A stretch of 32,000 bases of DNA, taken from contig FP565575.1 of assembly GCA_000091165.1 (NCBI GenBank), forward strand, positions 840,001-872,000, given 5' to 3'. Positions 5,358 to 31,528 of the stretch are shown piece by piece (within the stretch, counting starts at the first letter, position 1; the number at the start of each line of letters is the position of its first letter). The translations under genes were made by a program, and so were the position numbers. The stretch is from Candidatus Methylomirabilis oxygeniifera (lineage in GTDB: Bacteria; Methylomirabilota; Methylomirabilia; Methylomirabilales; Methylomirabilaceae). The notes below the pieces were generated by a model that saw only the letters and a program-made list of their open reading frames with translations, searched no databases and was not told the origin of the DNA.

Positions 5358-7829
5358 ATGATGAATCCGTTGACACCTGATGCGCTTCGCAAGGTCTGTC
5401 CGCCGGAAAGCCTCCCGTTTGAAGGGACGGATGAGCTCACACCCCTGGAAGAGGTCGTCGCTCAGGACCGCGCGGTCGAGGCCATCACCTTCGGTGTCGG
5501 CATCCGCTGCGAAGGGTTTAATCTCTTCGTCCTGGGGCCTGCCGGAACCGGCAAGACCACGGCGATCAAGCGCTTCCTGGCCAGCGAGGCGGCGAAGCTC
5601 CCGACCCCTCCCGATTGGTGCTATGTGAATAACTTCGCCGACCCGCAACGCCCCCGCGCGCTCTGCCTTCCTCCCGGTCGCGCCCACCTCTTCCAGGCCG
5701 ACTGCGAGCGGCTTCTGGCTGAGCTGAAGACTGGCGTCCCCAGAGCCTTCGAATCCGAGGCCTATGAACAGAACCGCCAGATCATCCTGGAGGAGTTGCA
5801 GAAACAGACGAGCGACGAGTTGGAGGCGTTGCGAAAGCGAGCAGAGGCGCTCGGATTTGGGCTTGCCAAGACCGCTAGCGGCTTTATGATCGTCCCGATG
5901 TTGAGGGGGAAGCCGTTGAAACCTGAAGGGTTCGAAGGCCTTGATGAGGAGACCAGGCAGCAGGTCACTCTCAGAATGGAGGAAGTGCAGAAGGATCTGG
6001 CCGCAACGCGCCGACGGATCCGCGACCTGGAGCGGGAGGCGAAGAACCGCCTTGACGGGATAGACCGGGAGGTTGCAACCTCCGCGGTGGATCACCTGAT
6101 CGAGGAGGTCAAAGACGGGTACGCCGAACACGCTGCTGTGCAGGCGCACCTCGAGGCGATACGCGAGGACGTCATCGCCAACGTCGATCTGTTTCGTCGG
6201 GATCAAAGCGTGGCGCAGGGACTACCGGATCCGACAGCGATGCTGCGGCAAGGGTTGGACCCTTTCGACCGGTATCGGGTGAACGTCCTGATTGAACATC
6301 GGGAGGATGGCGGCGCGCCGGTCGTTGTCGAACCGCACCCCACCTGTCAGAACCTGTTGGGGCGGGTCGAACACCAGGTTCACATGGGTGCGCTTTACAC
6401 TAATTTTCTGATGGCCAAGGCGGGGGCCTTGCACCGGGCTAATGGGGGCTTTCTGGTCCTGGAGGGTATGGAGTTGCTCAAGCAGTTCTTTGCGTGGGAC
6501 CAATTGAAACGGACACTCAAGAATCGCCGGATCAGGATCGAAGAGCCGGGGGAGCAGTTCCGTCTTTACAGCACAGTCACGCTTGAGCCCGATCCGATCC
6601 CTCTCAACGTGAAGGTGGTCCTCATCGGCAGCCCGTGGCTCTACTACCTGTTGCACGCCTATGACCCGGAGTTTCAGGAACTGTTCAAGGTCCAGGCCGA
6701 ATTCAGTGATCGCGTGGCTCGGACGCCTGACACGATTCTGACCTTTGCCCGCCTGCTGTCCACCTGTTGTGAGGCCGAGAAGCTCAAACCGTTCGACCGG
6801 GGCGCAGTCGCGAAGCTGGTAGAGCACAGCTCGCGGCTGGTGGAGGATCAGGAAAAGCTTGCCACGGCGTTCAGTCATCTCCTGGATGTGGCCCGCGAGG
6901 CCTGTTTCCTAGCCGGGCAGAACGGGCACGATCGGGTCACGGCAGAGGATGTGCAGCGTGCGATTTCCGCCAAGATCAGGCGCGCCAATCGACTGGATGA
7001 ACAGTTGCAGGAATTGATCGTTGAGCGGACCCTGCTGGTCGATACCGATGGCGCGGTGGTGGGACAAGTCAATGGAATCGCCATAATCCAGCTTGGGGAG
7101 TATCACTTCGGCAAGCCGAGTCGAATTACGGCGCGCACCTTTCTCGGGCGCGGCGGTATCATCGACATCGAGCGTGAAGCGCGAATGGGCGGCCGTATTC
7201 ACAGTAAGGGCGTACTGATCCTTTCAGGCTATCTCGGCGGCCGCTATGTGCAGCAGGCGCCCCTTGCCCTGTCGGCCAGTCTTGCCTTCGAACAGGTGTA
7301 TGAGGAGGTGGAAGGCGACAGTGCGTCGTCAGCGGAGTTATACGCAATCCTTTCCAGTCTGTCGGGGTTGCCGATCAAGCAGGGATTTGCGGTGACAGGC
7401 TCGGTAAATCAGCGGGGAGAGGTTCAGGCGATCGGGGCCGTCAATGCCAAGATCGAGGGGTTTTTTGATGTCTGCCGCGCAAGGGGATTGACGGGAGAGC
7501 AGGGCGTACTGATTCCGGCGAGTAATGTCCGGCATCTCATGCTCAGGGAGGATGTTGTGGAGGCGGTCGCTGCGGGGCAATTTCAAATCTTTCCCGTTCG
7601 GACTATCGATGAGGGGATTGCCTTGCTGACCGGACGGGAAGCGGGCGAGCGTGGCCCGGATGGAATCTTTCCTGAAGACAGCGTGAATGGACTGGTGCAG
7701 GGGCGGCTGCGCGAAATGGCGGAGCAGGCGCGCGCCTACGGCGGCGAGACCCCGGCGGTGTCGCATCAGGTAGACCGCCATGACGAAGTCGAATCGACAA
7801 TATCTCACTCAATCCGGACGCGGTCATGA
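5358..7829 (+). CDS. Lon-like ATP-dependent serine protease (S16 C-terminal domain; AAA+ module with long coiled-coil insertion; COG1067/LonC-like)
   Basis: Walker A GPAGTGKT. About 170 aa of heptad-rich insertion (EAYEQNRQIILEELQKQ...REAKNRLDGIDRE). Proteolytic Ser-Lys dyad context GDSASSAELYAILSSL and AVNAKIEGFF. Confidence 0.9.
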   Translation: MMNPLTPDALRKVCPPESLPFEGTDELTPLEEVVAQDRAVEAITFGVGIRCEGFNLFVLGPAGTGKTTAIKRFLASEAAKLPTPPDWCYVNNFADPQRPRALCLPPGRAHLFQADCERLLAELKTGVPRAFESEAYEQNRQIILEELQKQTSDELEALRKRAEALGFGLAKTASGFMIVPMLRGKPLKPEGFEGLDEETRQQVTLRMEEVQKDLAATRRRIRDLEREAKNRLDGIDREVATSAVDHLIEEVKDGYAEHAAVQAHLEAIREDVIANVDLFRRDQSVAQGLPDPTAMLRQGLDPFDRYRVNVLIEHREDGGAPVVVEPHPTCQNLLGRVEHQVHMGALYTNFLMAKAGALHRANGGFLVLEGMELLKQFFAWDQLKRTLKNRRIRIEEPGEQFRLYSTVTLEPDPIPLNVKVVLIGSPWLYYLLHAYDPEFQELFKVQAEFSDRVARTPDTILTFARLLSTCCEAEKLKPFDRGAVAKLVEHSSRLVEDQEKLATAFSHLLDVAREACFLAGQNGHDRVTAEDVQRAISAKIRRANRLDEQLQELIVERTLLVDTDGAVVGQVNGIAIIQLGEYHFGKPSRITARTFLGRGGIIDIEREARMGGRIHSKGVLILSGYLGGRYVQQAPLALSASLAFEQVYEEVEGDSASSAELYAILSSLSGLPIKQGFAVTGSVNQRGEVQAIGAVNAKIEGFFDVCRARGLTGEQGVLIPASNVRHLMLREDVVEAVAAGQFQIFPVRTIDEGIALLTGREAGERGPDGIFPEDSVNGLVQGRLREMAEQARAYGGETPAVSHQVDRHDEVESTISHSIRTRS

Positions 7830-7928
7830 AGATGACGCCGAAGATGTTGGAGGTAGAACAGGCGACCGGCGTGAGGGGCACGGGGTAAAGTGTGAGAAGT
7901 AAGGAGCAAGAAGGTCAGGAGGTGTGAG

Positions 7929-8453
7929 ATGACGGGTGGCAAGGTTCCGGTCAAGTCGGTCAAGAAGGTTGGTTCGCTGCTGAGCGAGCTGCTGGAGGTC
8001 GAGCGGCGAGTATCTGAGCGCGCCCATGAGCTCTTCAGAGATCAGGGTTGGCAAGCCGGCCGCGAGTGTGAGTATTGGCTGCAGGCCGAAAAGGAGCTGC
8101 TATGGCGGCCGTGCGCGGAGTTGGTCGAGACCGACGGAGAACTTCGAGTCAGCTTCGCCCTGGCCGGCCTGACTGCCAGGAATGTAAAGGTGCTGGTTGA
8201 ACCCAACCACCTGACGGTGCGAGCGGCCACAGCGCACGAAGACAGGAAAGAAGAGGGGACTTGCCACTTCTGCGAGTTTCATCGTGGGGAGCTGTACCGG
8301 TCAATGGCGTTGCCGAGTACCGTCATTCCGGAGAAGGTTCAGGCGGAGATGAAAGAGGGCATGCTGACCGTTGTACTTCCAAAGGGGAACGGATCCGGCG
8401 GTGGGAAGGTCCGGATAAAGAGAGCGTTGACGAGGACGCGCGTGGAATCTTGA
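7929..8453 (+). CDS. Hsp20/alpha-crystallin small heat-shock protein
   Basis: Strong SD aggaggtg. Alpha-crystallin domain WRPCAELVETDGELRVSFALAGLTARNVKVLVEPNHLTV...LYRSMALPSTVIPEKVQAEMKEGMLTVVLPK. Confidence 0.9.
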   Translation: MTGGKVPVKSVKKVGSLLSELLEVERRVSERAHELFRDQGWQAGRECEYWLQAEKELLWRPCAELVETDGELRVSFALAGLTARNVKVLVEPNHLTVRAATAHEDRKEEGTCHFCEFHRGELYRSMALPSTVIPEKVQAEMKEGMLTVVLPKGNGSGGGKVRIKRALTRTRVES

Positions 8454-13127: not shown

Positions 13128-13631
13128 ATGAGAACTGGACCGATCACAGCTTCCCAGGGCAGCGCAGTCGCCCGCCGAGTCCCCGCACGTCCGTGGCCTG
13201 GCACCGCACGCCCCGCCGAGCCGCAGCGGGTGGTCCCAGCAGTCCCACCCGATCCCGAGGTGCCCACAAAGCCGGCACGACGACGGTTCACCGCAGCCGA
13301 GAAGCTCCGCATCTTGAGACTCGCCGATGCCTGCACGGTGTCGGGGAGCCTGGGGGCGCTCTTACGCAAGGAGGGGCTGTACTCGTCGAACCTCACCACC
13401 TGGCGCCGACAGCGGGACGCGGGCACCCTGTCCGCCCTCACGCCCCAGAAGCGGGGCCGCAAACCGTCGATCCGCAGTCCACTCGCCCAGGAGCATGAGC
13501 AGCTTCGTCGGGAGAACGAACGGCTGACGCGGCGGCTCCGACAGGCCGAGCTCATCATTGATGTTCAAAAAAAAGTTTCGCAGATCCTGGGGATCCCCCT
13601 GGCGACCTCCGAGGCAGGAGGCAGCGACTGA
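13128..13631 (+). CDS. IS3-family transposase OrfA
   Basis: RRFTAAEKLRILRLADA....G.LGALLRKEGLYSSNLTTWRRQRDAG (HTH) followed by a leucine-zipper-like EHEQLRRENERLTRRLRQAELIIDVQKK. Confidence 0.85.
   Translation: MRTGPITASQGSAVARRVPARPWPGTARPAEPQRVVPAVPPDPEVPTKPARRRFTAAEKLRILRLADACTVSGSLGALLRKEGLYSSNLTTWRRQRDAGTLSALTPQKRGRKPSIRSPLAQEHEQLRRENERLTRRLRQAELIIDVQKKVSQILGIPLATSEAGGSD
13568..13574 (+). other. A AAA AAA programmed -1 frameshift heptamer
   Basis: orfA codons read caa aaa aaa gtt. The -1 frame is open from 13571 through ATG 13631 (checked codon by codon). Confidence 0.7.
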
Positions 13632-14635
13632 TGGGCGCCGCGCAGACTCTGGCCTCCGAGGTAGGGATCAAACCGGCCTGCGACGCGTTCGGCACTTCTC
13701 GTGCCGGCTTCTACCGCGCCCAGACACGAACGCACGCTCCGATGGTGGAGCCAACGAGGCGCCCCAGCCCTCCACGGGCGCTGTCCGCCGATGAACGGCA
13801 GGGCGTGCTCGACCTGCTGCACGCCGACCGGTTTGCCGACCAGGCGCCCCATGAGGTCTATGCGACCCTCCTGGACGAAGGCGACTACCGCTGCTCCATC
13901 CGCACCATGTACCGACTCCTCAACGACCACACCGAGGTCAAAGAACGCCGGAACCAGTTGCGCCATCCGGTATATCAGAAACCGGAACTGCTGGCCACGG
14001 CCCCGAACCAGGTCTGGTCGTGGGACATTACGAAGCTCCTCAGCCCGGTGACGTGGTCCTACTTCTACCTCTATGTGATCCTGGACATTTTCAGCCGGTA
14101 CGTCGTCGGCTGGATGGTCGCCTTGGCGGAATCGGCCGCCTTGGCCGAACGACTCATCCGTGAGACCTGCGCCAAACAGGGGATCGACAAAGGGCAGCTC
14201 ACGATCCATGCGGACCGGGGCTCCTCCATGACCTCCAAGCCCGTGGCGTTCCTGTTGGCCGATCTGGGCGTCACCAAAACCCACAGCCGGCCGCATACGA
14301 GTGATGACAACCCGTACTCGGAAAGTCAGTTCAAGACCCTCAAGTACCGACCGGACTTCCCGGAACGGTTCGGGTGCATCGAGGATGCCCGGGGCTTCTG
14401 TCAGGACTTCTTCACCTGGTATAACACCGCGCATCGGCATACGGGCATTGGTCTCCTGACACCGGAGGTCCTGCACTACGGCTTGGCGGACGAGGTCCGC
14501 GCGGCTCGCGCCGCGATCCTGCAGGCCGCCTATGAAACCCATCCGGAGCGGTTCGTCCGCAAGGTGCCGGTTCCCCCGGCGCTTCCGGAGGCCGCGTGGA
14601 TTAACAAACCGAAGCCGATGGATACCGAGCGATGA
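13631..14635 (+). CDS. IS3-family transposase OrfB (DDE/rve integrase core)
   Basis: VWSWDITKL (D), IHADRGSSMTS (D) and DNPYSESQFKTLKY (E). The ATG overlaps the orfA TGA by 1 nt. Confidence 0.85.
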   Translation: MGAAQTLASEVGIKPACDAFGTSRAGFYRAQTRTHAPMVEPTRRPSPPRALSADERQGVLDLLHADRFADQAPHEVYATLLDEGDYRCSIRTMYRLLNDHTEVKERRNQLRHPVYQKPELLATAPNQVWSWDITKLLSPVTWSYFYLYVILDIFSRYVVGWMVALAESAALAERLIRETCAKQGIDKGQLTIHADRGSSMTSKPVAFLLADLGVTKTHSRPHTSDDNPYSESQFKTLKYRPDFPERFGCIEDARGFCQDFFTWYNTAHRHTGIGLLTPEVLHYGLADEVRAARAAILQAAYETHPERFVRKVPVPPALPEAAWINKPKPMDTER

Positions 14636-15200: not shown

Positions 15201-15584
15201 TTACGCCATACGGTTGAGCGGCTCCAGATGAGCTATTTCGACAGCCCTCGTGCTGCGCATCGCGTACCACAGATCCCAATCCTGCTGAAGCCCCAGCCAG
15301 AAGTCTGCCGACATTCCCACCACGCGGGCCAGTCGCAGGGCCGTATCAGGGGTGACGCTCCGCTTGCCGCGAACGATTTCATTCAACCGAGGGAAGGAGA
15401 TGCCGAGACGCGCTGCCATAGCCGACTGGGTGATCCCCAATGGCTTGAGGAACTCCTCAAGCAGCATCTCCCCTGGATGGGTTGGAGGCCTCTCGCGCGG
15501 TAGTCGCCGGCCGGCAAGCCCTCCTGTACGAGCCGCCTCATGACCGGTAGCCCGCTTGCTAGTGATAGTCCGTGATTTCGACAT
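15201..15584 (-). CDS. higA: HigA-family antitoxin (XRE-type HTH)
   Basis: THPGEMLLEEFLKPLGITQSAMAARLGISFPRLNEIVRGKRSVTPDTALRLARVVGMSADFWLGLQQDWDLW is the canonical HigA core. The first usable ATGs are 15584 and 15593, which overlap the higB 3' end by at least 26 nt. No in-frame GTG or TTG lies further downstream. Confidence 0.8.
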   Translation of the reverse strand: MSKSRTITSKRATGHEAARTGGLAGRRLPRERPPTHPGEMLLEEFLKPLGITQSAMAARLGISFPRLNEIVRGKRSVTPDTALRLARVVGMSADFWLGLQQDWDLWYAMRSTRAVEIAHLEPLNRMA

Positions 15585-15852
15585 CGTCTGCATAACCGTT
15601 TTCCCATGAAAAACAGATTCTGTATTGATCGTTGATCCTGATGGCGTGCTGCCCGCTCCGGTCACCGTGGAGACGTTCCAAGTGGTTCCCTGGGGGTCTC
15701 GCCAGCTCTTTGAGATCACGTACCCGGTTCAGTTGGTCCAGCTTCCGACGGGCAACAGGCCACACGGCGCTGGGGCAGGTCCTGCGTGCTGATGGGCTGT
15801 CCGAACCGTCGAAGACGGCTTTAGTGCCCTGGTCCCGGAATGAGCGTATCAC
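15559..15852 (-). CDS. higB: HigB-family toxin (RelE/ParE superfamily mRNA interferase, killer protein)
   Basis: MIRSFRDQGTKAVFDG...LDQLNRVRDLKEL..PPGNHLERLHGDRSGQHAIRINDQYRICFSWENG.ADDVEITDYH matches the HigB pattern. The toxin-first gene order is typical of higBA. Confidence 0.8.
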   Translation of the reverse strand: MIRSFRDQGTKAVFDGSDSPSARRTCPSAVWPVARRKLDQLNRVRDLKELARPPGNHLERLHGDRSGQHAIRINDQYRICFSWENGYADDVEITDYH

Positions 15853-15941: not shown

Positions 15942-18224
15942 CTACAGGTAATGGCCGAGAGCGGAGTCCTTTTGCGGTACCGCCTGGCGCAGGCGCTTGC
16001 CGACTTCGGCGTACTCCCGCTCCATCGCCTCGGTGACGGACGGAAGTGTCTCGGCAAGTGCGGCCAGGAAGTCGGCGTGCGTGACCGCCTTGGCCTCCAG
16101 GTCCTTGCGTAGGGCAAGCTGGGCGGCGCGCATGCAGATCAAAGCCAGGTCGGCCCCGGTAAACCGGTCGGTCCTGCGGACAAGGTCCTTCAGGTCCACG
16201 TCGTCGGCGAGGGCCATGTGACGGGTGTGAACAGCGAGGATCTCGTGACGGGCGGCGGCGTCAGGGACCGGAACGTAGACCAGCGCATCAAAGCGCCCGG
16301 GGCGCAGCAGCGCCGGATCGATGAGGTCGGGCCGGTTGGTGGCCCCCAGGATGACCACCCCGCGCAGCTCCTCCAGGCCGTCCAACTCGGAGAGGAGTTG
16401 GTTGACGATCCGCTCGGTCACATGCGGTTCGCCTGCCGCCGTCCCGCGTCGCGGCACAAGGGCATCCACCTCGTCGAAGAATACGATGGCGGGGGCCACC
16501 TGGCGGGCTTTGGCGAAGAACTCTCGAATACGCTGTTCCGACTCGCCGTACCATTTGGAGAGTAGGTCGCTCCCTTTGGCCAGCATGAAGTTGGCCTTCG
16601 CCTCGTTGGCGACGGCCTTGGCCAGAAGGGTTTTTCCTGTCCCTGGCGGACCATACAGCAGGACGCCTTTGGGCGGCTTGATGCCGAGGCGCTCGAAGGC
16701 CTGAGGATGGGTCAGCGGCAGTTCCACAGTCTCCCGAAGGGCCCGTTTGACATCGGCCAGGCCGCCGACATCGCTCCAGGTCACCCGAGGAACCTCGATC
16801 AACAGCTCCCGAAGGGCCGAAGGGCGGATCCGCCGTAACGCCTGGTTAAAGTCCTCGTGGGTGACGACCAGACGCTGCAGGACCTCGGCGGGGAATGTTT
16901 CAAGCCTGAGATCCAACTCCGGGAGGATGCGCCGGAGCGCATTCAGGGCCGCCTCACGGCAAAGGGCGGCCAAGTCCGAACCAACACAGCCGTGCGTGAG
17001 GTCCGCCACCCAATCCAGGTTGACATCCGGGGCAAGCGGCATGGCCCGCGTGTGAATCGTGAGAATCTGACGGCGCCCATTACGGTTGGGCACCCGCAGC
17101 TCAATCTCCCGGTCGAAGCGGCCTGGGCGGCGTAACGCCAGATCGATCGCGCCGACGCGGTTGGTGGCTCCGATGACGATCACATTACCGCGCGGCGTCA
17201 GGCCGTCCATTAATGTCAACAGTTGGGCCACGACCCGCCGTTCTACCTCGCCCATCACCGCCTCGCGCTTGGGGGCGATCGAGTCAAGCTCATCGATAAA
17301 AATAATGGCGGGCGGGTTCTCCTGCCCCTCCTGGAAGATCGCGCGAAGGCGTTCCTCCGATTCGCCGTAGAAACGTCCCATGATTTCGGGTCCATTGATG
17401 GTGGCGAAGTGGGCCTTGGCTTCATTGGCCAGGGCCTGGGCGAGGAGGGTCTTACCGGTCCCCGGAGGGCCGTGCAGGAGCACGCCTTTGGGCGGCGCAA
17501 TCCCAAGCCGATCGAACAGTTCCGGATGTTTGAGCGGCAGCTCCACAACCTCCCGGATCTCATTGATGACGTCGCCAAGCCCGCCGATGTCGTCGTAGGT
17601 GATATCCGGAAGGTGGGCCTCTTTGGTCTCGACAAACTCAGGGAGGAGTTCTACCTCGGTTTGGGGATTGATGCGCACAATGCCGGATGGGACGGTGCCC
17701 GCGACGACCAGGCGCACCTCGCCCAAGCCGATTGCCAGTGAGCCGAGTAAGCCACGGAAGAGTTCCTCCGGGTACATCCCGGGTGGGACAATCTCCTTGG
17801 AACGTGAGGCTGTTCCGACCGAGATCAGGTCGCCACGAACGACAGGACGGTAGAGCAGCGCCTGGCGGAGTACCTCGCCTGGGGCGACGGCGCGCAAGCC
17901 CTTGCGGGCGGGCGCCAGCGTCACCTTTTGCGCATCCCGCCAGACGGCCTTGCGGACCTGCACGTAATCGCCTATGCTGGCATGCGCATTCGTGCGAATC
18001 ACGCCATCGACCCGGACCACATCCAGGCCTTGATCGGCTGAGCGGGCCGCCGCCACCAGGGCTGCCGTTTCCCGATCCCCGATAATGGAGACAATCTCGC
18101 CCCGTTCCAACTCCAGGACGGCAAAGGCTGCGTCGCTGACGCGGACAATCCCGCGACCGACGTCCTCCTGGCCGGCTTCAGCCACCTTCAGGCGAATGTC
18201 TCCCTCCACGTGAGGCTGTTGCAT
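15942..18224 (-). CDS. Cdc48/VCP(p97)/VAT-like double-ring AAA+ ATPase
   Basis: 760 aa. Cdc48-type N-domain (GIVRVSDAAFAVLELERGEIVSIIG...VVRVDGVIRTNAHASIGDYVQV). Two AAA cassettes, each with GPPGTGKT and DELD/DEVD Walker B plus second-region-of-homology arginines (RRPGRFD, LRPGRFD). The C-terminus is ...DSALGHYL*. Confidence 0.9.
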   Translation of the reverse strand: MQQPHVEGDIRLKVAEAGQEDVGRGIVRVSDAAFAVLELERGEIVSIIGDRETAALVAAARSADQGLDVVRVDGVIRTNAHASIGDYVQVRKAVWRDAQKVTLAPARKGLRAVAPGEVLRQALLYRPVVRGDLISVGTASRSKEIVPPGMYPEELFRGLLGSLAIGLGEVRLVVAGTVPSGIVRINPQTEVELLPEFVETKEAHLPDITYDDIGGLGDVINEIREVVELPLKHPELFDRLGIAPPKGVLLHGPPGTGKTLLAQALANEAKAHFATINGPEIMGRFYGESEERLRAIFQEGQENPPAIIFIDELDSIAPKREAVMGEVERRVVAQLLTLMDGLTPRGNVIVIGATNRVGAIDLALRRPGRFDREIELRVPNRNGRRQILTIHTRAMPLAPDVNLDWVADLTHGCVGSDLAALCREAALNALRRILPELDLRLETFPAEVLQRLVVTHEDFNQALRRIRPSALRELLIEVPRVTWSDVGGLADVKRALRETVELPLTHPQAFERLGIKPPKGVLLYGPPGTGKTLLAKAVANEAKANFMLAKGSDLLSKWYGESEQRIREFFAKARQVAPAIVFFDEVDALVPRRGTAAGEPHVTERIVNQLLSELDGLEELRGVVILGATNRPDLIDPALLRPGRFDALVYVPVPDAAARHEILAVHTRHMALADDVDLKDLVRRTDRFTGADLALICMRAAQLALRKDLEAKAVTHADFLAALAETLPSVTEAMEREYAEVGKRLRQAVPQKDSALGHYL

Positions 18225-18851
18225 CTACTCTTTCGCTCCCGTAGTCTGGTCGTTCGTCTGACGCCCGTCGAAATACGCAAGGCCGGCAGGCAGTTGTATT
18301 CGAATTGTGTCTTGCGCCACGCACGGACTCTACCAAGGGCAGCAGATCGCGTCAAGGTCAGAGTGGAGAAAAATTGTCGCAGAGTCATGATCGAGCATTC
18401 TTAGATCGAGGAAGCAAACGGCGGGAGCCTGTAAAAAGCAAAAGCCACAAGGTGTTCGTTCGTACATCACCTCCGGACTAGGCCGGACACCCCGTGGCTC
18501 TCTCGAGGAAACCTCACTTGGAGCGGGTTTTGGTCCCAGGCTAAGCCCTCTTGCTCTGCAAGCATTCACAACTTCGTGCTTGCTCGCGGCTCTTTCAGCC
18601 ATCGCCCGTTCACTGGGGCTTCCTCACTACTAATATAGGGCGATCCCCAATTGTGTGCAAGACCCACTCTGTGTTTATCCGACAGATCAGCCTGCTTTGT
18701 CTCTTTCCCAAGGATGCCGATGAAGGGTATACTGGGGCGCTCTTGCAGACAGGACACCTGGTAGGCACGCAGGAGAATCGGCGGAACGATGTCTTCAATG
18801 GCTGTGAGCGGATGGTCACATAACCTGCTTCACGGAAGGAGCCAACCGACC

Positions 18852-24806: not shown

Positions 24807-25256
24807 ATGAAAGTATCTACAAAAGGTGATTACGCAACACGAGCCATGCAGGATCTGGCCCTCCACTATGAGCAAGGCCCGATTCAGATTGAGGATATCG
24901 CCAAGCGGCAACACCTCCCAGCCAGGTACCTGGAACAGATCCTGTTGAGCCTCAAGCGAGCCGGATTTCTGGAGAGTAAGCGCGGGGTGAGCGGCGGTTA
25001 CTACCTGGCTAAACATCCCCGTGAGATCACCGTTGGCGCCATTATCAGGGCGATGGAGGGACCGATTGTCCCGATTTTCTGCGTCGGAAGCGGCCAGCGG
25101 GAGATCTGCATTGAAGAGCCTCAGTGCTGTCTGCGGGACATCTGGGCCGAGGTGCGCGACGCAGTGAGCCACATTGTCGACCGTACCTCCTTGGAAGACC
25201 TCTGCGGACAGATCCGTGCGAGACGGGAGCGAGGAGAGGTCAGCTACCAAATCTAA
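24807..25256 (+). CDS. Rrf2-family transcriptional regulator (IscR/CymR/NsrR-like) with a C-terminal Cys cluster
   Basis: MKVSTKGDYATRAMQDLA...IAKRQHLPARYLEQILLSLKRAGFLESKRGVSGGYYLA is a winged HTH. Cys92, Cys101, Cys107 and Cys108 are candidate Fe-S ligands. Confidence 0.9.
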   Translation: MKVSTKGDYATRAMQDLALHYEQGPIQIEDIAKRQHLPARYLEQILLSLKRAGFLESKRGVSGGYYLAKHPREITVGAIIRAMEGPIVPIFCVGSGQREICIEEPQCCLRDIWAEVRDAVSHIVDRTSLEDLCGQIRARRERGEVSYQI

Positions 25257-25289
25257 CCTATCTGGGCTGCCTGGAGATCGGATACGTAG

Positions 25290-26204
25290 ATGCCACGGTT
25301 GGTTCGAAACGCTCTGGAACTGATTGGCGACACGCCGCTGGTTCAGTTGCAGCGGATACCGCATCCTGGATCGGCCAGGATTTTCGCCAAGCTGGAGTCG
25401 CTCAATCCGGGCGGAAGTGTGAAGGATCGGATCGCCCTGGCGATGATCGAGGATGCGGAGCGGAGTGGGCGCCTCAAGCCAGGCGATACGATTGTCGAGC
25501 CGACGTCAGGCAATACCGGGATCGGGCTGGCGATGGTCGCTGCCGTCAAGGGGTATCACCTGATTCTGACGATGCCGGAGGATATGAGCGCAGAACGGCG
25601 GAAGTTGGTCGGTCGGTTCGGGGCCGAAGTGATTCTGACCCCGGCCATTGAGGGGATGAGCGGCGCGGTCTATGCGGCAGAATCGCTGGTGGCGCAACAT
25701 CCCGGTTACTTCATGCCGCAACAGTTTCTGAATCCGGCCAACCCGGCCGTTCATCGTCGTACGACGGCACAAGAGATTCTGAAAGCGACTGATGGCCAGG
25801 TCGATGCTTTTGTGGCCGGTGTCGGGACCGGTGGAACGATTACCGGGGTGGGCGAGGTGCTCAAAAGGGAAGTTCCCGGCATTCAGGTGATCGCGGTAGA
25901 GCCGGCCAGATCTCCCGTCTTGCAGGGAGGGAGGGCCAGGCCGCATGGTATTCAGGGGATCGGCGCAAGCTTTGTCCCCGGCGTACTGAATATGGAAGTC
26001 GTTGATGAAGTGATCGCGGTTGAGGACGAGGACGCCTATCGGATGGCCTCTCGTCTGGGTAAAGAGGAGGGCCTGCTGGTGGGGATCTCAGCCGGGGCCA
26101 ACGTCTTTGCCTCAGTAGTGGTCGCCCAACGGCTTGACAGCAAAAAGGTTGTGGTCACAATCCTCCCCGACACGGGGGAGCGATACTTATCGGTTCCACT
26201 GTAA
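25290..26204 (+). CDS. cysK: Cysteine synthase A (O-acetylserine sulfhydrylase, PLP-dependent)
   Basis: GDTPLV, PLP lysine in NPGGSVKDR, TSGNTGIGLA, GVGTGGTITG, and a C-terminal PDTGERYLS. Confidence 0.9.
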   Translation: MPRLVRNALELIGDTPLVQLQRIPHPGSARIFAKLESLNPGGSVKDRIALAMIEDAERSGRLKPGDTIVEPTSGNTGIGLAMVAAVKGYHLILTMPEDMSAERRKLVGRFGAEVILTPAIEGMSGAVYAAESLVAQHPGYFMPQQFLNPANPAVHRRTTAQEILKATDGQVDAFVAGVGTGGTITGVGEVLKREVPGIQVIAVEPARSPVLQGGRARPHGIQGIGASFVPGVLNMEVVDEVIAVEDEDAYRMASRLGKEEGLLVGISAGANVFASVVVAQRLDSKKVVVTILPDTGERYLSVPL

Positions 26205-26224
26205 CCTGCAAGGGGGCAAAACGA

Positions 26225-27373
26225 ATGAATGCCTGCCGTGATATGAAGATCTCTCAACCGCGCACATCAGCGAACAGCGACCGCAGCGTGGCGATCCGTG
26301 TCTATATCCCGACTCCGTATCGGGGACTGACCGACAATCAGCCTCGTGTCGAAGGGCGAGGAGATGATCTGGTAGAACTTCTGGAGGATTTGGACCGACG
26401 CTTTCCAGGGATTCATGGGCGTGTGTTCGATCAGATGGGCGAATTCCACCGTCACCTCAATATCTATGTCAACAATGTGGCGGTAGAGGAGTTAGGCGGG
26501 AAGCGGACCGCACTCAAGGATGGCGACGAGGTGGCGTTGATCCCGGCTATGGCGGGAGGCGCCGGACCGTTCAATGAAGAGCAGATCCGCCGTTACAGTC
26601 GCCATATCATCCTTCCCGAGGTAGGCGGGAAGGGGCAGCGCAAACTGTTGAACAGTTCGGCGTTGCTCGTCGGCGCAGGCGGTCTGGGATCCCCTGCGGC
26701 TCTCTACCTGGCGGCTGCCGGTGTGGGTCGTCTCGGCATCATTGACGCCGATGTGGTGGACTTGAGCAACCTGCAGCGTCAGATTCTTCACCATGTGGAT
26801 GATGTGGGGCGGCCGAAGGTGATCTCAGCGGTCGAGGCGATCGGCCAGATCAATCCCGACGTAAAGGTGGAGCCGTTTCAAGCGGTCCTCTCCTCGGAGA
26901 ACGCGAAGGAGGTTATCAGTCAGTACGATCTGGTGGTCAATGGCTGCGATAATTTTCCGACGCGATACCTGACGAACGACGCCTGCGTGCTGCTCAAGAA
27001 ACCACTCGTGGACGGAAGTATCTTTAAGTTTGAAGGGCAGGTGACGGTCTTTCTGCCCGGTCAAGGCTGCTATCGCTGCCTATATCCGGCCCCTCCGCCA
27101 CCAGGGCTTGTGCCGAGCTGTCAGGAGGCCGGTGTACTGGGTGTGCTGTGCGGCATTGTCGGCAGCCTGCAGGCGATTGAGGCAATCAAGCTGCTGCTCG
27201 GGATCGGCGACTCGCTGGCCGGGCGGTTGCTTTTCTTCGATTCGTTGGGGATGGAGTTCAGGCAGGTCAAGGTGCGGCGCGACTCCGACTGTCCGGTGTG
27301 CGGAGACGATCCGACCATCACCGATCTGATCGATTATCACGAATTCTGTGGAGTGCCGGGCGGTGGTCACTGA
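26225..27373 (+). CDS. Fusion protein: CysO/MoaD/ThiS-like ubiquitin-fold sulfur carrier (about aa 22-112, ending ...IPAMAGG) + MoeB/ThiF-type adenylyltransferase (E1-like, no rhodanese domain)
   Basis: Carrier part VAIRVYIPTPYRG...HLNIYVNNVAVEELGGKRTALKDGDEVALIPAMAGG, with G111-G112 at 26555-26560. It continues without a stop or Met into AGPFNEEQIRRYSRHIILPEVG..GQ..L..S.LLVGAGGLGSPAALYLAAAGVG.L.IID.D.V..SNLQRQ. Also CQEAGVLG and the Zn pairs CYRC and CPVC. The protein ends 25 aa after CPVC. Confidence 0.85.
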   Translation: MNACRDMKISQPRTSANSDRSVAIRVYIPTPYRGLTDNQPRVEGRGDDLVELLEDLDRRFPGIHGRVFDQMGEFHRHLNIYVNNVAVEELGGKRTALKDGDEVALIPAMAGGAGPFNEEQIRRYSRHIILPEVGGKGQRKLLNSSALLVGAGGLGSPAALYLAAAGVGRLGIIDADVVDLSNLQRQILHHVDDVGRPKVISAVEAIGQINPDVKVEPFQAVLSSENAKEVISQYDLVVNGCDNFPTRYLTNDACVLLKKPLVDGSIFKFEGQVTVFLPGQGCYRCLYPAPPPPGLVPSCQEAGVLGVLCGIVGSLQAIEAIKLLLGIGDSLAGRLLFFDSLGMEFRQVKVRRDSDCPVCGDDPTITDLIDYHEFCGVPGGGH

Positions 27374-27466
27374 GGTTGCGAACGGCGCAGCCATGGTCCG
27401 GATGATGGGCCTTGGTCTCGTTGTAGGGGTGCCTTCGGATATGCCCTGCAACGCGGTCGCTTCTGC

Positions 27467-28408
27467 ATGAACTCGACGTTTCGCGACATCCTGTTGGCGC
27501 GGGATTTCACTCTGCTGCGGGCCTACCTGCTGGCGCTGTTGATTCAGATGGTCGGGGTGAGAGCGATGGCGACATTCGGTCTGTTCGGATTAGGCATCAC
27601 GCCCTTTTTCTGGATGGCGACACTGTTCGGCGGATTCGTCTTTGGCCTCGGTATGGCGTTGTCCGGCGGGTGCGCGAGCGGGAGCACCTATCGGTCAGGT
27701 GAGGGGATGGTAGGGTCCATTATCGCGCTGCTCGGCTTTGTGTTCGGGATAACCATGACGAATGACGGTGTGTTGGAGCCGGTACAGGCGACCTTTCGAG
27801 GTTGGGTCGTTGAGATCGACGGGCAGCCTGCGACGCTGGACCGCCTCCTGGGCGTGAGCCCGTGGATCCTGGTTGTGACGTGTGTGACGGTCGGCGGATG
27901 GTGGCTTGTGAAAAGCCCGTCCGGCGGCTATCAGAGAGGATGGAGCTGGGTAAGGAGCGGCTTGACCATCGGCCTGATCGCGACGGCTGCCTGGCCGATC
28001 TCCGCCCTGACCGGACGGGAGTACGGTCTCTCGGTCACTGAACCGATTCGAACCATCTCGGGATTCCTGTTTACGGGTGAGACCGACCGGCTTACCTGGG
28101 GAAGTTTTATGTGGGTCGGGCTCATCGCGGGCGCTCACGTGGCGGCGCGGTCGCATGGAGAGTTTGCCTGGCGTGCTCCCGGTGCGCAACGTCTGCTTCA
28201 GGCGCTCGGGGGTGGTCTGCTGATGGGTATGGGTGCGGGGATTGCGGGTGGCTGTAACATCGGTCACGCACTGACCGGTGTTCCGCTCTTCGGGTTGAGC
28301 AGCATGACGGCGACCCTCAGTATTATGGTGGGTGTCTGGGCTGGAGTCTACCTATTGTTCGGTAGTGTGGCATTTGAACGCGGAGCGCGAAGCGTCCAGC
28401 GGGCGTAG
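27467..28408 (+). CDS. YeeE/YedE (TsuA-type) thiosulfate/sulfur-compound permease; as called it lacks the first TM helix, and the conserved N-terminus lies upstream in two frames (27393-27466)
   Basis: GGCASGSTYR and GGCNIGHALTG motifs, polytopic. Upstream in the same frame reads GAFGYALQRGRFC with no start codon. The 0 frame reads MVRMMGLGLVVGV. See finding. Confidence 0.8.
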   Translation: MNSTFRDILLARDFTLLRAYLLALLIQMVGVRAMATFGLFGLGITPFFWMATLFGGFVFGLGMALSGGCASGSTYRSGEGMVGSIIALLGFVFGITMTNDGVLEPVQATFRGWVVEIDGQPATLDRLLGVSPWILVVTCVTVGGWWLVKSPSGGYQRGWSWVRSGLTIGLIATAAWPISALTGREYGLSVTEPIRTISGFLFTGETDRLTWGSFMWVGLIAGAHVAARSHGEFAWRAPGAQRLLQALGGGLLMGMGAGIAGGCNIGHALTGVPLFGLSSMTATLSIMVGVWAGVYLLFGSVAFERGARSVQRA

Positions 28409-28437
28409 CGTCTCCCGATCGGAGAGTCGATCGGAGA

Positions 28438-28680
28438 ATGGTGGAGAAGGCGATGGCGAAGTACTCACTTGATGTGACCGGAGAGATCTGTCCGTATCCG
28501 TTGATGTTGACCAAGCAGAAGATGGGGGCGCTCGCGTCCGGCGATCAGTTGGCAGTGATGGTCGATTACGCAAAATCAGTCGAAGACATTCCCCGGTGGG
28601 CCAAAGAAGAGGGGTACTCGGTTCTTGCCGTCTTGGAAGTGGGGAGAACGCAGTGGGAAATCGTTCTGGAAAAGGCATAA
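28438..28680 (+). CDS. TusA/SirA-like sulfurtransferase (TsuB-like partner of YeeE)
   Basis: LDVTGEICPYPLMLTKQKM carries the CPxP active-site motif. About 76-80 aa (alternative ATG at 28453). Confidence 0.85.
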   Translation: MVEKAMAKYSLDVTGEICPYPLMLTKQKMGALASGDQLAVMVDYAKSVEDIPRWAKEEGYSVLAVLEVGRTQWEIVLEKA

Positions 28681-28701
28681 GCATTCGTGGAGGAGGTCAG
28701 C

Positions 28702-28950
28702 ATGATGAGTGGGGCGCCTGAGCAGACGGTTGAGTCCCTCGATCTGAAGGGCGAGGTGTGCCCCTACACGTTTGTGAAGACCAAATTGGCCTTGGAGGAG
28801 CTACAGAGTGGTCAGGTGCTGAGGGTGATTGTGGACAACCCCGGCTCTGCGGCAAACGTTCCCAGGAGCCTACACAGTGAAGGGCATGTGGTTGTCGATG
28901 TAACGCAACTGAATGACACCGACTGGGCGATTACAGTGAAAAAGGCCTGA
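28702..28950 (+). CDS. Second TusA/SirA-like sulfurtransferase
   Basis: LDLKGEVCPYTFVKTKLALEEL. ATG 28702 follows SD ggaggagg (the track opens at GTG 28687). Confidence 0.85.
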   Translation: MMSGAPEQTVESLDLKGEVCPYTFVKTKLALEELQSGQVLRVIVDNPGSAANVPRSLHSEGHVVVDVTQLNDTDWAITVKKA

Positions 28951-28987
28951 CCTGCCTGGGTAGAGTGGGCCGGGGACGAGACAGCCG

Positions 28988-29016
28988 ACCTGCCCGTGCG
29001 GTGCACGCAGGCAGGT
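28988..29016 (+). promoter_or_regulatory. GC-rich stem-loop just 5' of the cysM-like SD, with an alternative upstream pairing partner
   Basis: acctgcccgtgc (28988-28999) pairs with gcac(gc)aggcaggt (29003-29016) over 12 bp with a 2-nt bulge. The right arm caggcaggt is also perfectly complementary to acctgcctg at 28950-28958. Confidence 0.35.
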
Positions 29017-29029
29017 AAAGAGGACATGG

Positions 29030-29965: not shown

Positions 29966-29966
29966 G

Positions 29967-30455
29967 ATGGTCCTCACCGAACGGGAGCTGAACGAGATCT
30001 TTGCGCACGCCGAAGAGGCGTTTCCCGAGGAGGCCTGTGGTATCGTGATAGGCAAACCGGGCGATCCGAATACGAACCTTGTTCGCAGATGCGGAAATCT
30101 GGCGAATCAGTATCACCTGGACGATCCGACTCGGAATCCGAGAGATGCAAAGACCGCCTACATCATGGACCCGAAGGACCTGCTGCGGGTTCAAAGCGAA
30201 GCGGATGCGAAGGGCTTCGAGTTCGTTGTGCTCTATCATTCACACCCGGATCATGAGGCCTACTTCTCCGAGACCGATCGAGAGTTGGCGCTGTTCGACG
30301 GTGAACCAGTGTGGTCTCGGCTGCGCTATCTCGTGGTATCGGTGAAAAATGGAAAGGTCTCGTATTTCAGGGTATTCGGTTGGGACACCATCGAAAAGCA
30401 GTTTACGGCGGAGCCGTCCGCTGTCTTTGAACGAAAAGACCAGCCTCTCGTGTAG
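29967..30455 (+). CDS. mec: JAMM/MPN+ zinc metallopeptidase (Mec+/CysO-cysteine peptidase-like)
   Basis: EEACGIV (catalytic Glu) and HSHPDHEAYFSETD, which is an exact H-x-H-x7-S-x2-D JAMM motif. The ATG is 1 nt after the cysM stop. Confidence 0.85.
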   Translation: MVLTERELNEIFAHAEEAFPEEACGIVIGKPGDPNTNLVRRCGNLANQYHLDDPTRNPRDAKTAYIMDPKDLLRVQSEADAKGFEFVVLYHSHPDHEAYFSETDRELALFDGEPVWSRLRYLVVSVKNGKVSYFRVFGWDTIEKQFTAEPSAVFERKDQPLV

Positions 30456-30538
30456 AGCTTCTTGAGGGAATGATACGTGATATGCGGGGCGTTCGAAACT
30501 GAGCCGGATGGTCGCGAGATGAATAGGAAGCCAAGGGC

Positions 30539-31480: not shown

Positions 31481-31528
31481 GTCTATTTCTAGGCCGTTGG
31501 CGGGCGATGAATGATGGAGAGGGTAATC

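What the first reader, a model, noticed from the sequence alone, without database searches (positions are those of the whole stretch)
15942..18224. Bacterial Cdc48/VCP-like unfoldase ending in G-H-Y-L, a proteasome-docking-like tail
This is a full Cdc48 architecture: a double-psi-barrel-type N-domain plus D1 and D2, each with intact Walker A/B and arginine fingers. That is uncommon outside archaea, eukaryotes and actinobacteria.

The last four residues are GHYL (read directly: ctc ggc cat tac ctg tag on the minus strand). This is one substitution from the GQYL tail used by mycobacterial Mpa and PafE/Bpa to dock on the 20S core, and it has the penultimate Tyr of the archaeal HbYX motif.

No proteasome, Anbu or HslV-type peptidase gene is in this window, so the partner is unknown. 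A Ubl/E1/JAMM set lies 8 kb away and a Lon-like protease 8 kb the other way. Any functional link to either is pure speculation.
Basis: partly seen in the sequence, partly recalled or inferred. Interest (0 to 1): 0.6.

Follow-up and report, generated by a model that had tools for sequence, protein, structure and literature searches.

The report
Bacterial Cdc48 with proteasome-docking tail
A methane-oxidising bacterium (Candidatus Methylomirabilis) carries an archaeal-type Cdc48 protein-unfolding motor that ends in the same four residues (GHYL) as the bacterium's own proteasome ATPase Mpa, so it is probably a second, undescribed ATP-driven cap for the bacterial 20S proteasome.

Summary
Window 15942-18224 (-) encodes a 760-aa CDC48-family ATPase (TIGR01243, 985 bits; cut-off 803) ending in GHYL. 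It has an N-domain and two complete AAA rings with aromatic pore loops.

The 2.75-Mb genome holds a full Pup-proteasome system 205 kb away (mpa-dop-prcB-prcA-pafA, with pup elsewhere).

- **Shared tail.** Its Mpa also ends in GHYL. Among 9,689 reading frames of 100 aa or more, only these two end in G-x-Y-L.
- **Conservation.** Across 23 distinct orthologue C-termini the tetrapeptide is almost invariant, while the linker before it varies freely.
- **Lineage variant.** Mpa ends in GHYL in this clade of the order and GQYL in the rest of the phylum. The GHYL Cdc48 occurs only in the GHYL-Mpa clade.
- **Other Cdc48s.** Archaeal relatives carry HbYX tails. About 40 bacterial relatives have no Tyr tail, and the 24 of their genomes searched lack a 20S.
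- **Tree.** The GHYL clade nests among tail-less bacterial Cdc48s, so the tail was probably re-invented.

Best reading (about 0.65): a Pup-independent, ATP-dependent 20S activator. Binding is untested. It is not Cpa. I class it as a new variant of a known kind. An earlier scan note reports a different GQYL-tailed AAA protein in this phylum.

The parts
15942..18224 (-). cdc48-like gene: 760 aa, archaeal VAT-type double-ring AAA+ unfoldase
   Evidence: ORF. TIGR01243 scores 985 bits against a cut-off of 803. The best solved relative is T. acidophilum VAT, 5g4f, at 802 bits over the full length.
17628..18194 (-). N-domain (residues 11-199): double-psi-barrel part plus beta-clam part, the presumed site for substrate or adaptor binding
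   Evidence: Pfam CDC48_N scores 90.6 bits (residues 11-93) and CDC48_2 scores 37.1 bits (118-199). The AF2 model gives confident beta structure, with a low-confidence insert at 138-168.
16815..17597 (-). D1 AAA module (about residues 210-470) with a complete catalytic set and an aromatic pore loop, RFYG
   Evidence: Walker A at 252, Walker B at 307, sensor-1 at 353, RPGRFD at 366 and pore loop at 284.
15981..16787 (-). D2 AAA module (about residues 480-748) with a complete catalytic set and an aromatic pore loop, KWYG. This ring would face the 20S.
   Evidence: Walker A at 525, Walker B at 580, sensor-1 at 628, RPGRFD at 641 and pore loop at 557. The last helix spans residues 732-748.
15957..15977 (-). 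Flexible, sequence-variable linker (residues 750-756, PQKDSAL) between the last D2 helix and the tail
   Evidence: pLDDT is below 50 and the segment is coil in the AF2 model. Positions -5 to -10 have 1.8-3.1 bits of entropy across 23 orthologue C-termini.
15945..15956 (-). C-terminal tetrapeptide G-H-Y-L (codons GGC CAT TAC CTG), the proposed docking motif for the alpha-ring pockets of the 20S
   Evidence: It is identical to the tail of the genome's Mpa, although 3 of the 4 codons differ synonymously. It is nearly invariant among orthologues and unique to these two proteins in the genome.
18327..18355 (-). Sigma-70-like promoter candidate (TTGACG-17-TAGAGT, with TG extension), about 100 nt upstream of the ATG in the 564-bp divergent spacer shared with usp
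   Evidence: Consensus scan only, so this is weak evidence. The divergent cdc48-usp arrangement is conserved in 11 of 14 same-genus genomes.

Best explanation
The gene encodes an archaeal-type Cdc48/VAT hexameric unfoldase that serves, in Candidatus Methylomirabilis and close relatives, as a second ATP-dependent activator of the bacterial 20S proteasome (PrcAB).

Proposed mechanism:
1. The N-domain selects substrates, probably without Pup, because the protein lacks Mpa's coiled-coil Pup receptor.
2. D1 and D2 thread and unfold substrates with their aromatic pore loops.
3. The flexible free C-termini insert their G-H-Y-L tetrapeptides into the pockets between PrcA subunits, with the terminal carboxylate facing the conserved Lys52. 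This is how Mpa's identical GHYL tail, and GQYL in other bacteria, dock. The insertion opens the gate, and the unfolded chain passes into the 20S.

What is shown: the architecture, intact motifs, tail identity with Mpa, tail conservation, co-occurrence with the 20S, and the lineage-specific H variant shared by both ATPases.

What is inferred: hexamer formation, physical binding, gate opening, Pup-independence and the substrate range.
For: 1. The partner exists. The same single-contig genome holds mpa-dop-prcB-prcA-pafA at C1:632418-639073 and pup at C1:586174-586362. PrcA scores 241 bits against Rhodococcus PrcA and keeps the pocket Lys52.

2. The genome's Mpa ends ...ISTGHYL. Only Mpa and this Cdc48 end in G-x-Y-L among 9,689 frames of 100 aa or more.

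3. The identity is held at the protein level. Codons are GGC CAC TAT CTA in mpa and GGC CAT TAC CTG in cdc48.

4. Selection acts on the tetrapeptide itself. Across 23 distinct orthologue C-termini it reads G 23/23, H 22/23 (one Q), Y 23/23, L 22/23 (one I). The preceding six positions have 1.8-3.1 bits of entropy.

5. The tail is a lineage variant.
- Mpa ends in GHYL in families f1, f2, f3, f4 and f5 of the order: 17/17 in the genus, 6/6 in f2, plus G024, G043, G035 and G039.
- Mpa ends in GQYL in 29/29 genomes of f6, f9 and f10.
- The GHYL-tailed Cdc48 is found only inside the GHYL-Mpa clade.

6. Tail type tracks the proteasome across the family.
- Archaeal relatives almost all have penultimate-Tyr HbYX tails.
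- About 40 bacterial relatives from other phyla have none. The 24 of their genomes that I searched show no alpha/beta pair, only an HslV-like hit.
- None of 149 diverse family representatives ends in G-x-Y-[LIVM].

7. The last 11 residues are predicted to be disordered after the final D2 helix, as a docking tail requires.

8. Precedent from the literature.
- Archaeal CDC48s with the tail bind and activate the 20S, those without it do not, and deleting the tail abolishes activation (PMC3493965).
- GQYL is essential for Mpa and PafE docking, and its Gln is replaceable (PMC6017811, PMC12288473).
- Cryo-EM shows GQYL seated in the alpha-ring pockets (PMC8755798).

9. All eight genomes of the genus that are at least 99% complete carry the gene, in conserved synteny.
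Against: - No binding or activity data exist. Everything is inferred from sequence.
- The gene is 205 kb from the proteasome operon and shares no recognisable regulatory element with it.
- The Q-to-H switch is a single evolutionary event, so the co-variation between Mpa and Cdc48 amounts to one observation, not many.
- One orthologue (P0010) reads GQYL inside the GHYL clade. H and Q may therefore be interchangeable rather than co-adapted.
- A second, unrelated clade of Cdc48-like genes in 20S-bearing genomes of the same phylum has no Tyr tail. A Cdc48 in a proteasome-bearing bacterium does not have to dock.
- In eukaryotes the penultimate-Tyr tail of p97 mainly binds PUB/PUL cofactors. The Cdc48-20S interaction there is transient and debated (PMC6008533, PMC11475706).
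- Even Mpa docks weakly on the wild-type closed-gate 20S in vitro (PMC12288473).
Confidence: 0.65

Rival explanations
1. The protein is a stand-alone unfoldase or segregase that remodels, disaggregates or extracts proteins, as many tail-less bacterial Cdc48s presumably do. On this reading the GHYL tail binds some other, unidentified cofactor, or regulates the hexamer itself, and the match to Mpa's tail reflects a shared non-proteasomal partner.
For: - Most bacterial members of this clade live without a 20S and without a Tyr tail, so the core function does not require a proteasome.
- The gene neighbours are stress-type genes (usp; HSP20 and LonC within 10 kb), not proteasome genes.
- The p97 tail binds PUB/PUL adaptors in eukaryotes (PMC6008533).
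Against: - The genome has no PUB or PUL domains (the controls rang only weakly).
- The only other protein in the genome with this tail is the proteasome ATPase itself.
- The tail appears in exactly the one bacterial Cdc48 clade that lives with a 20S, and in the bacterial rather than the archaeal form.
- A shared non-proteasomal partner for Mpa and Cdc48 has no precedent.
Confidence: 0.22
2. The tail docks the unfoldase on a different self-compartmentalised peptidase of this genome, such as six-fold-symmetric HslV or the nearby LonC-like protease.
For: - HslV is encoded at C1:59033-59587 with HslU and would match a hexamer's symmetry.
- A LonB/LonC-like protease lies 8 kb away.
Against: - HslV has its own dedicated partner, HslU, encoded next to it.
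- No protein other than Mpa shares the tail.
- G-x-Y-L is the motif documented for PrcA pockets (PMC8755798, PMC12288473).
- HslV is present in the tail-less bacterial Cdc48 genomes too, so it does not explain why only this clade has the tail.
- LonC carries its own AAA-like domain.
Confidence: 0.06
3. The shared GHYL is a coincidence or a neutral relic with no function.
For: The motif is only four residues long. The Gln/His position is known to tolerate substitution (PMC6017811).
Against: - The background frequency of a G-x-Y-L ending is about 1e-4 per frame.
- The tail is invariant across 23 diverged orthologues while the adjacent residues vary.
- Codon differences show the match is maintained at the protein level.
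Confidence: 0.03

Closest known systems
Archaeal Cdc48/VAT-20S proteasome (Thermoplasma acidophilum VAT; Methanosarcina mazei CDC48-A/B; Forouzan et al. 2012, PMC3493965; Barthelme and Sauer, as reviewed in PMC6008533)
   Same: - Same protein family and architecture: 802 bits to VAT and 60-62% identity to methanogen Cdc48.
- Aromatic pore loops in both rings.
- A flexible C-terminal tail with a penultimate Tyr.
- It co-exists with a second proteasomal ATPase (PAN there, Mpa here), the 'network of AAA ATPases' idea.
   Different: - The host is a bacterium, and the 20S is the bacterial PrcAB type served by the Pup system.
- The tail is G-H-Y-L, the bacterial GQYL type. It is not HbYX, because His at -3 breaks the [LVIMGAPFYW][FY]x pattern.
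- The tree suggests the tail was not simply inherited from the archaeal donor.
Mpa/ARC, the Pup-dependent bacterial proteasome ATPase (TIGR03689)
   Same: - An identical C-terminal tetrapeptide in the same genome.
- A classic-clade AAA ATPase.
- The presumed docking site is the same PrcA pocket.
   Different: - Mpa has a single AAA ring with a coiled-coil and OB N-terminus that binds Pup, and a beta-grasp domain before the tail.
- This protein has a Cdc48 N-domain and two AAA rings, and scores below the Mpa model's cut-off (421 bits against 505).
- Substrate selection must therefore differ.
[quoted passage not shown] 2018, PMC6017811)
   Same: A double-ring Cdc48-like ATPase in a bacterium with a Pup-proteasome, proposed to interact with the proteasome.
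   Different: - Cpa forms its own actinobacterial clade and has a degenerate D1 without sensor Asn or Arg finger.
- Cpa has no penultimate-Tyr motif, and binds the 20S equally well without its last five residues.
- The protein here is archaeal-type, has a complete D1, and carries the canonical docking motif.
Bpa/PafE, the ATP-independent bacterial proteasome activator
   Same: It uses a C-terminal GQYL on a flexible linker to open the PrcA gate. This shows that unrelated proteins converge on the same motif.
   Different: It is a non-ATPase four-helix-bundle ring. No homologue was detected here (though the control did not ring), and no other G-x-Y-L protein exists in this genome.

Membership tests
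CDC48/VAT family AAA ATPase (TIGR01243) | Whole-protein score above the curated cut-off over the full model | tested here: met
   985.3 bits against a cut-off of 802.65, covering model positions 2-729 of 733.
CDC48/VAT family AAA ATPase (TIGR01243) | N-domain made of a double-psi barrel plus a beta-clam (CDC48_N plus CDC48_2) | tested here: met
   PF02359 scores 90.6 bits and PF02933 scores 37.1 bits, both above their cut-offs. The AF2 model shows confident beta structure at residues 9-105 and 133-193.
CDC48/VAT family AAA ATPase (TIGR01243) | Two tandem classic AAA modules with Walker A, Walker B, sensor-1 and Arg fingers | tested here: met
   All motifs are present in both D1 and D2. Two AAA and two AAA_lid_3 Pfam matches were found.
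CDC48/VAT family AAA ATPase (TIGR01243) | Hexameric double ring with unfoldase activity | not testable with these tools
   Only a monomer model was made. This needs biochemistry or EM.
Bacterial 20S activators with a C-terminal GQYL motif (functional class: Mpa/ARC, Bpa/PafE) | G-Q-Y-L (Gln replaceable) at the very C-terminus on a flexible segment | tested here: met
   The tail is GHYL, identical to the same genome's Mpa tail. One orthologue reads GQYL. Residues 750-760 are disordered in the model. The replaceability of Gln is taken from PMC6017811 and PMC12288473.
Bacterial 20S activators with a C-terminal GQYL motif (functional class: Mpa/ARC, Bpa/PafE) | Co-occurrence with prcA/prcB, and a conserved pocket Lys in PrcA | tested here: met
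   PrcB and PrcA are in the genome. Lys52 is conserved. Every genome with a GHYL Cdc48 in which the operon could be read has the Pup-proteasome genes.
Bacterial 20S activators with a C-terminal GQYL motif (functional class: Mpa/ARC, Bpa/PafE) | Physical binding to the alpha ring and gate opening | not testable with these tools
   No complex prediction or assay is available here.
Archaeal HbYX proteasomal ATPases | C-terminal pattern [LVIMGAPFYW][FY]x (PMC3493965) | tested here: not met
   The residue at -3 is His, which is neither hydrophobic nor small. Tyr at -2 is present.
Cpa (Cdc48-like protein of actinobacteria) | Degenerate D1 lacking sensor Asn and Arg finger, and no penultimate-Tyr tail (PMC6017811) | tested here: not met
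   D1 has ATNR at 353 and RPGRFD at 366, and the tail has a penultimate Tyr.
Cpa (Cdc48-like protein of actinobacteria) | Placement in the actinobacterial Cpa clade | tested here: inconclusive
   No Cpa sequence could be brought into the tree. The protein sits firmly inside a clade of archaeal-type Cdc48. PMC6017811 reports that non-actinobacterial homologues cluster with the archaeal ones.
Mpa/ARC (TIGR03689) | Score above the equivalog cut-off, with a coiled-coil and OB N-terminus | tested here: not met
   420.7 bits against a cut-off of 504.75, and the match covers the AAA modules only.

The most novel reading that the evidence does not exclude
After an archaeal Cdc48 gene entered Bacteria it lost its HbYX docking tail, which is why tail-less 'IGF plus extension' forms occur in many phyla. 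In the one recipient lineage that also owned a Pup-proteasome, it then evolved a new docking tail that copies, at the protein level, the lineage's own Mpa tail, down to the local His variant.

The result would be a bacterial Cdc48-20S proteasome: a Pup-independent, ATP-dependent degradation route working in parallel with Mpa. It would be a natural example of an activator being re-plugged into a proteasome by four residues.
Probability: 0.4. Interest if true: 0.78.

Novelty: new variant of a known kind. Interest (0 to 1): 0.66.

Why it matters
- **A gap in bacterial proteasome biology.** Bacterial proteasome biology rests almost wholly on Actinobacteria, where the only ATP-dependent cap with a defined docking motif is Mpa. 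How the Cdc48-like Cpa binds remains unknown.
- **A ready-made test case.** This bacterial Cdc48 carries the canonical bacterial docking tetrapeptide, in a non-actinobacterial phylum where the 20S is widespread. It lets one test whether a Cdc48-20S machine exists in Bacteria.
- **Parallels with archaea.** It would extend the archaeal idea of a 'network of proteasomal AAA ATPases' to Bacteria.
- **Evolution of activators.** It would show how easily activators are recruited by tail evolution.
- **Specificity of the motif.** The shared Q-to-H variant in Mpa and Cdc48 offers a handle on what the supposedly free third position of GQYL does.
- **Simple experiments.** A peptide activation assay and a pull-down with and without the tail need only recombinant proteins, which suits an organism that has no pure culture.

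Tried and rejected
- **Recent gene conversion between the mpa and cdc48 3' ends.** Rejected. Three of the four tail codons differ synonymously, and nothing upstream of the tetrapeptide is similar.
- **'Mpa is missing in G035 and G039, so Cdc48 replaced it.'** Rejected. Both dop contigs begin with the 3' end of mpa (...PGHYL*), so the gap is an assembly break.
- **p97-like PUB/PUL cofactors as tail receptors.** None found in the genome. The controls only rang weakly, so this is a soft negative.
- **Shared heat-shock regulation.** There is no CIRCE or HAIR operator near cdc48 or the proteasome operon. Sigma-32-like matches are at background level.
- **A link to the Ubl/E1/JAMM set.** Rejected. 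It sits with two CysM-like PALP genes, sulphur transporters, an Rrf2 regulator and sulfite reductase, so it is a sulphur-carrier cysteine pathway.
- **A Bpa/PafE homologue.** PF10759 found nothing, but the control rang nowhere, so this is uninformative. The genome-wide tail scan is the better negative.
- **Membership in Cpa, Mpa or strict HbYX.** Each fails a defining feature (see the membership tests).
- **Simple retention of the ancestral archaeal tail with one loss in Bacteria.** Disfavoured by the AU test (p 0.002).
- **The parsimony count of tail-state changes printed.** Discarded, because my crude rule mis-scored names ending 'IGFR'.
- **Not pursued:** a comparison of PrcA pocket residues between the GHYL and GQYL clades. 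With only one switch event, any clade-specific substitution would correlate.
Full report
**1. Observation**

The ORF at window 15942-18224 (minus strand) is real. It is 760 aa long, starts at ATG and ends ...SALGHYL*.
- It scores 985 bits on NCBIfam TIGR01243 (CDC48 family; cut-off 803) over the whole model.
- Pfam finds CDC48_N, CDC48_2, two AAA modules and two AAA lids.
- Both rings carry Walker A and B, sensor-1 Asn and RPGRFD arginine fingers.
- Both have aromatic pore-1 loops, RFYG in D1 and KWYG in D2. From my own knowledge, aromatic residues in both rings are typical of the archaeal unfoldase VAT rather than p97.
- The closest solved structure is VAT of Thermoplasma acidophilum (5g4f, 802 bits, full length), ahead of p97 (659) and yeast Cdc48 (617).
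- An AlphaFold2 model (mean pLDDT 79.6) is confident for the N-domain, D1 and D2. Its last helix ends at residue 748. Residues 750-760 are coil with pLDDT below 50, so the tail is a free, flexible C-terminus.

**2. The partner**

The window lies at 840001-872000 of a single 2,752,854-bp contig with 58.6% G+C. The closest named homologue (94% identity) is from Candidatus Methylomirabilota.

The genome contains three proteasome-family genes.
- Two are adjacent and belong to a complete Pup-proteasome operon at C1:632418-639073. It encodes Mpa/ARC (TIGR03689, 727 bits), Dop (577), PrcB (TIGR03690, 302), PrcA (TIGR03691, 322) and PafA (576).
- pup lies apart, at C1:586174-586362.
- The third gene is HslV, with HslU beside it.

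PrcA scores 241 bits against Rhodococcus PrcA and keeps the pocket lysine (SLNK52). That lysine is the residue reported to pair with the activator's C-terminus (PMC12288473).

**3. The key result**

The genome's own Mpa ends ...ISTGHYL.
- Of 9,689 stop-to-stop frames of 100 aa or more in all six frames, exactly two end in G-x-Y-L: Mpa and this Cdc48.
- Among 39,544 frames of 40 aa or more, only four other short frames do, giving a background near 1e-4.
- The two tails use different codons: GGC CAC TAT CTA in mpa and GGC CAT TAC CTG in cdc48. The match is therefore held at the protein level and is not a recent copy.

**4. Conservation**

Eleven metagenomic orthologues (82-97% identity) end in GHYL (9), GHYI (1) or GQYL (1). 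I pooled these with the genomic orthologues, which gave 23 distinct C-termini.
- The tail reads G 23/23, H 22/23, Y 23/23 and L 22/23, with entropy of 0.26 bit or less.
- Positions -5 to -10 carry 1.8-3.1 bits.

This is position-specific purifying selection on the terminal tetrapeptide behind a free linker.

**5. Survey of the phylum (251 genomes)**

- **20S.** Bacterial 20S beta is present in 191 of 251 genomes (88 of 104 high-quality ones), so the Pup-proteasome is a trait of the phylum.
- **This Cdc48.** The orthologue is present in 14 of 19 genomes of the genus, including all eight that are at least 99% complete. It also occurs in one genome each of two other families (G035, G039). Every complete copy ends in GHYL.
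- **Mpa tails.**
  - In the genus, 17 of 17 read GHYL.
  - In family f2, 6 of 6 read GHYL, as do G024 (f3) and G043 (f5).
  - In families f6, f9 and f10, 29 of 29 read the canonical GQYL.
- **G035 and G039.** These seemed to lack Mpa, but their dop contigs start with the 3' end of mpa, reading ...APGHYL* and ...SPGHYL*.

GHYL is thus the local form of GQYL in one clade of the order. The GHYL-tailed Cdc48 occurs only inside that clade, and in every genome where both tails can be read they agree.

Two cautions apply. The Q-to-H switch is one evolutionary event. The GQYL-tailed orthologue P0010 also groups inside the GHYL clade, so H and Q may simply be interchangeable, as reported for mycobacterial GQYL (PMC6017811).

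The tallies include three genomes flagged as unpublished (G216, G075, G034). No specific claim rests on them, and I skipped the G216 locus when reading tails.

**6. Across the family**

- **Named genomic loci.** Among 80 loci, archaeal Cdc48s almost all end with a penultimate Tyr (HbYX type).
- **Bacterial members.** About 40 bacterial members have no Tyr tail. They come from Sphingomonadales, Methylobacterium, Gemmatimonadota, Rubrivirga, Thermotogaceae and Bipolaricaulota. They share an '...IGF...' motif followed by a variable extension.
- **Their genomes.** In 24 of those genomes, PF00227 finds only a single HslV-strength hit, plus a weak unlinked second hit in ten. None has an alpha/beta pair.
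- **Diverse representatives.** None of 149 cluster representatives (50% identity) of the family ends in G-x-Y-[LIVM].

In everything I sampled, a G-x-Y-L tail on a Cdc48 is unique to this clade.

**7. Phylogeny**

I built a FastTree of 101 rows. I also built an IQ-TREE (LG+C20, quick search, 48 rows, last 16 residues removed). Both place the GHYL clade (100*, long stem of 0.39-0.45) inside archaeal-type Cdc48.

In the IQ-TREE the clade sits within an all-bacterial group (96*). There it forms a 98* trichotomy with two tail-less bacterial groups. That all-bacterial group is sister to the HbYX-tailed Methanosarcinia-type archaeal Cdc48s.

An AU test rejects the tree that holds all tail-less bacterial sequences together with the GHYL clade outside (delta lnL 19.9, p 0.002). 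I defined that group after seeing the tree, and it is a quick-search tree.

The simplest reading has three steps: one transfer from archaea, loss or burial of the HbYX tail in Bacteria, and re-creation of a docking tail in bacterial form in the only lineage with a 20S. Retention of the tail with two or more independent losses is not excluded.

A second, unrelated clade of Cdc48-like genes in the phylum (f2, f6, f9, f13) has no Tyr tail, even though those genomes have a 20S.

**8. Literature**

- In archaea, CDC48 proteins with HbYX tails bind and activate the 20S and those without do not. Removing the last 12 residues of T. acidophilum CDC48 abolishes activation (PMC3493965).
- GQYL is essential for Mpa and PafE, and its Gln is dispensable (PMC6017811, PMC12288473). 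Cryo-EM shows GQYL in the alpha-ring pockets (PMC8755798).
- Cpa has no such motif, keeps binding without its last five residues, and has a degenerate D1. Sporadic non-actinobacterial Cdc48s cluster with the archaeal ones (PMC6017811).
- ProEnd treats non-actinobacterial bacteria as lacking a proteasome (PMC11475706).
- Searches for GHYL with proteasome, GQYL with Cdc48, and Methylomirabilis with proteasome found no description of this protein. The library is limited to open-access papers and preprints.

**9. Context**

- The gene appears to be transcribed alone. A sigma-70-like promoter candidate lies at 18355-18327.
- No CIRCE or HAIR operator is nearby.
- The divergent usp-rhodanese pair upstream is conserved in 11 of 14 genomes of the genus. 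The HigB/HigA pair downstream is strain-specific.
- The 'Ubl/E1/JAMM set' is a ThiS-ThiF fusion (26225-27373) and a JAMM gene (29904-30455). They sit among two CysM-like PALP genes, sulphur transporters, an Rrf2 regulator and sulfite reductase. This is a sulphur-carrier cysteine pathway with no visible link to Cdc48.

**10. Verdict**

The most likely function, at confidence about 0.65, is a second ATP-dependent and probably Pup-independent activator of the bacterial 20S, docking through GHYL in the same way as Mpa. The main rival (about 0.22) is a stand-alone unfoldase whose tail has another partner.

The protein is a member of the CDC48/VAT family. It is not Cpa, not Mpa, and not a strict HbYX protein. 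I rate it a new variant of a known kind.

If that holds, Methylomirabilota may run a small network of proteasome caps. That protein is not in this genome.

Noticed in passing
L105-L183 (loci), C-termini of the bacterial Cdc48 genes: All tail-less bacterial Cdc48 groups share a conserved '[IVL]-G-F' motif near the C-terminus, followed by a variable 4-20-residue extension. The groups are Sphingomonadales, Methylobacterium, Gemmatimonadota, Rubrivirga, Bipolaricaulota/Thermotogaceae and Delta/Binatia MAGs. The motif could be a buried relic of HbYX or a docking motif for another partner.
   Followed up: partly
G259, G260, G263-G266, G269, G271-G273: Ten of 24 Cdc48-bearing Sphingomonadales genomes have a second, weak PF00227 hit (30-47 bits, open frames of 250-370 aa) that is unlinked to HslV. 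It may be an Anbu/BPH-like proteasome homologue. A link to their Cdc48 was not examined.
   Followed up: no
L013, L029, L031, L033, L035-L040 (phylum families f2, f6, f9, f13): A second, unrelated clade of Cdc48-like double-AAA genes is present in many 20S-bearing Methylomirabilota. It branches near Archaeoglobi/Bathyarchaeia sequences, matches TIGR01243 only up to about position 680, and has no Tyr tail.
   Followed up: partly
G077, G085, G097, G099, G187: Several genomes of the phylum have two full-length TIGR03689 (Mpa) matches on different contigs, which suggests Mpa paralogues.
   Followed up: no
window 5358-8453: A LonB/LonC-like protease (AAA_32, LonB lid, LonC helical domain and Lon_C) is followed by an HSP20 small heat-shock protein that carries an N-terminal DUF2934. 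Together with usp and cdc48 this makes a loose proteostasis and stress neighbourhood.
   Followed up: partly
window 15201-15852 (-): A HigB-like toxin and an HTH antitoxin lie directly downstream of cdc48. The pair is absent at this position from almost all other genomes of the genus; only one shares HigA. An rve-family integrase lies at 13631-14635, so this is a strain-specific mobile patch.
   Followed up: partly
window 24807-31999: A sulphur-assimilation cluster: an Rrf2 regulator, a CysM-like PALP gene, a ThiS-ThiF fusion, a Sulf_transp gene, a second PALP gene, a JAMM gene (Mec-like, 29904-30455), TauE and sulfite reductase. The fusion of the sulphur-carrier ThiS to its E1 is notable.
   Followed up: partly
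G035:C48:1-60, G039:C457:1-210, and many loci among L041-L058: In MAGs of this order, contigs often break inside or right next to mpa. Several mpa loci sit at contig ends, and two dop contigs begin within the last codons of mpa. This can make mpa look absent.
   Followed up: partly
window 17721-17813 (residues 138-168 of the Cdc48): A low-confidence insert of about 30 residues lies within the second half of the N-domain (pLDDT 37-41). It includes a predicted helix (152-162) that is not covered by the CDC48_2 model.
   Followed up: no
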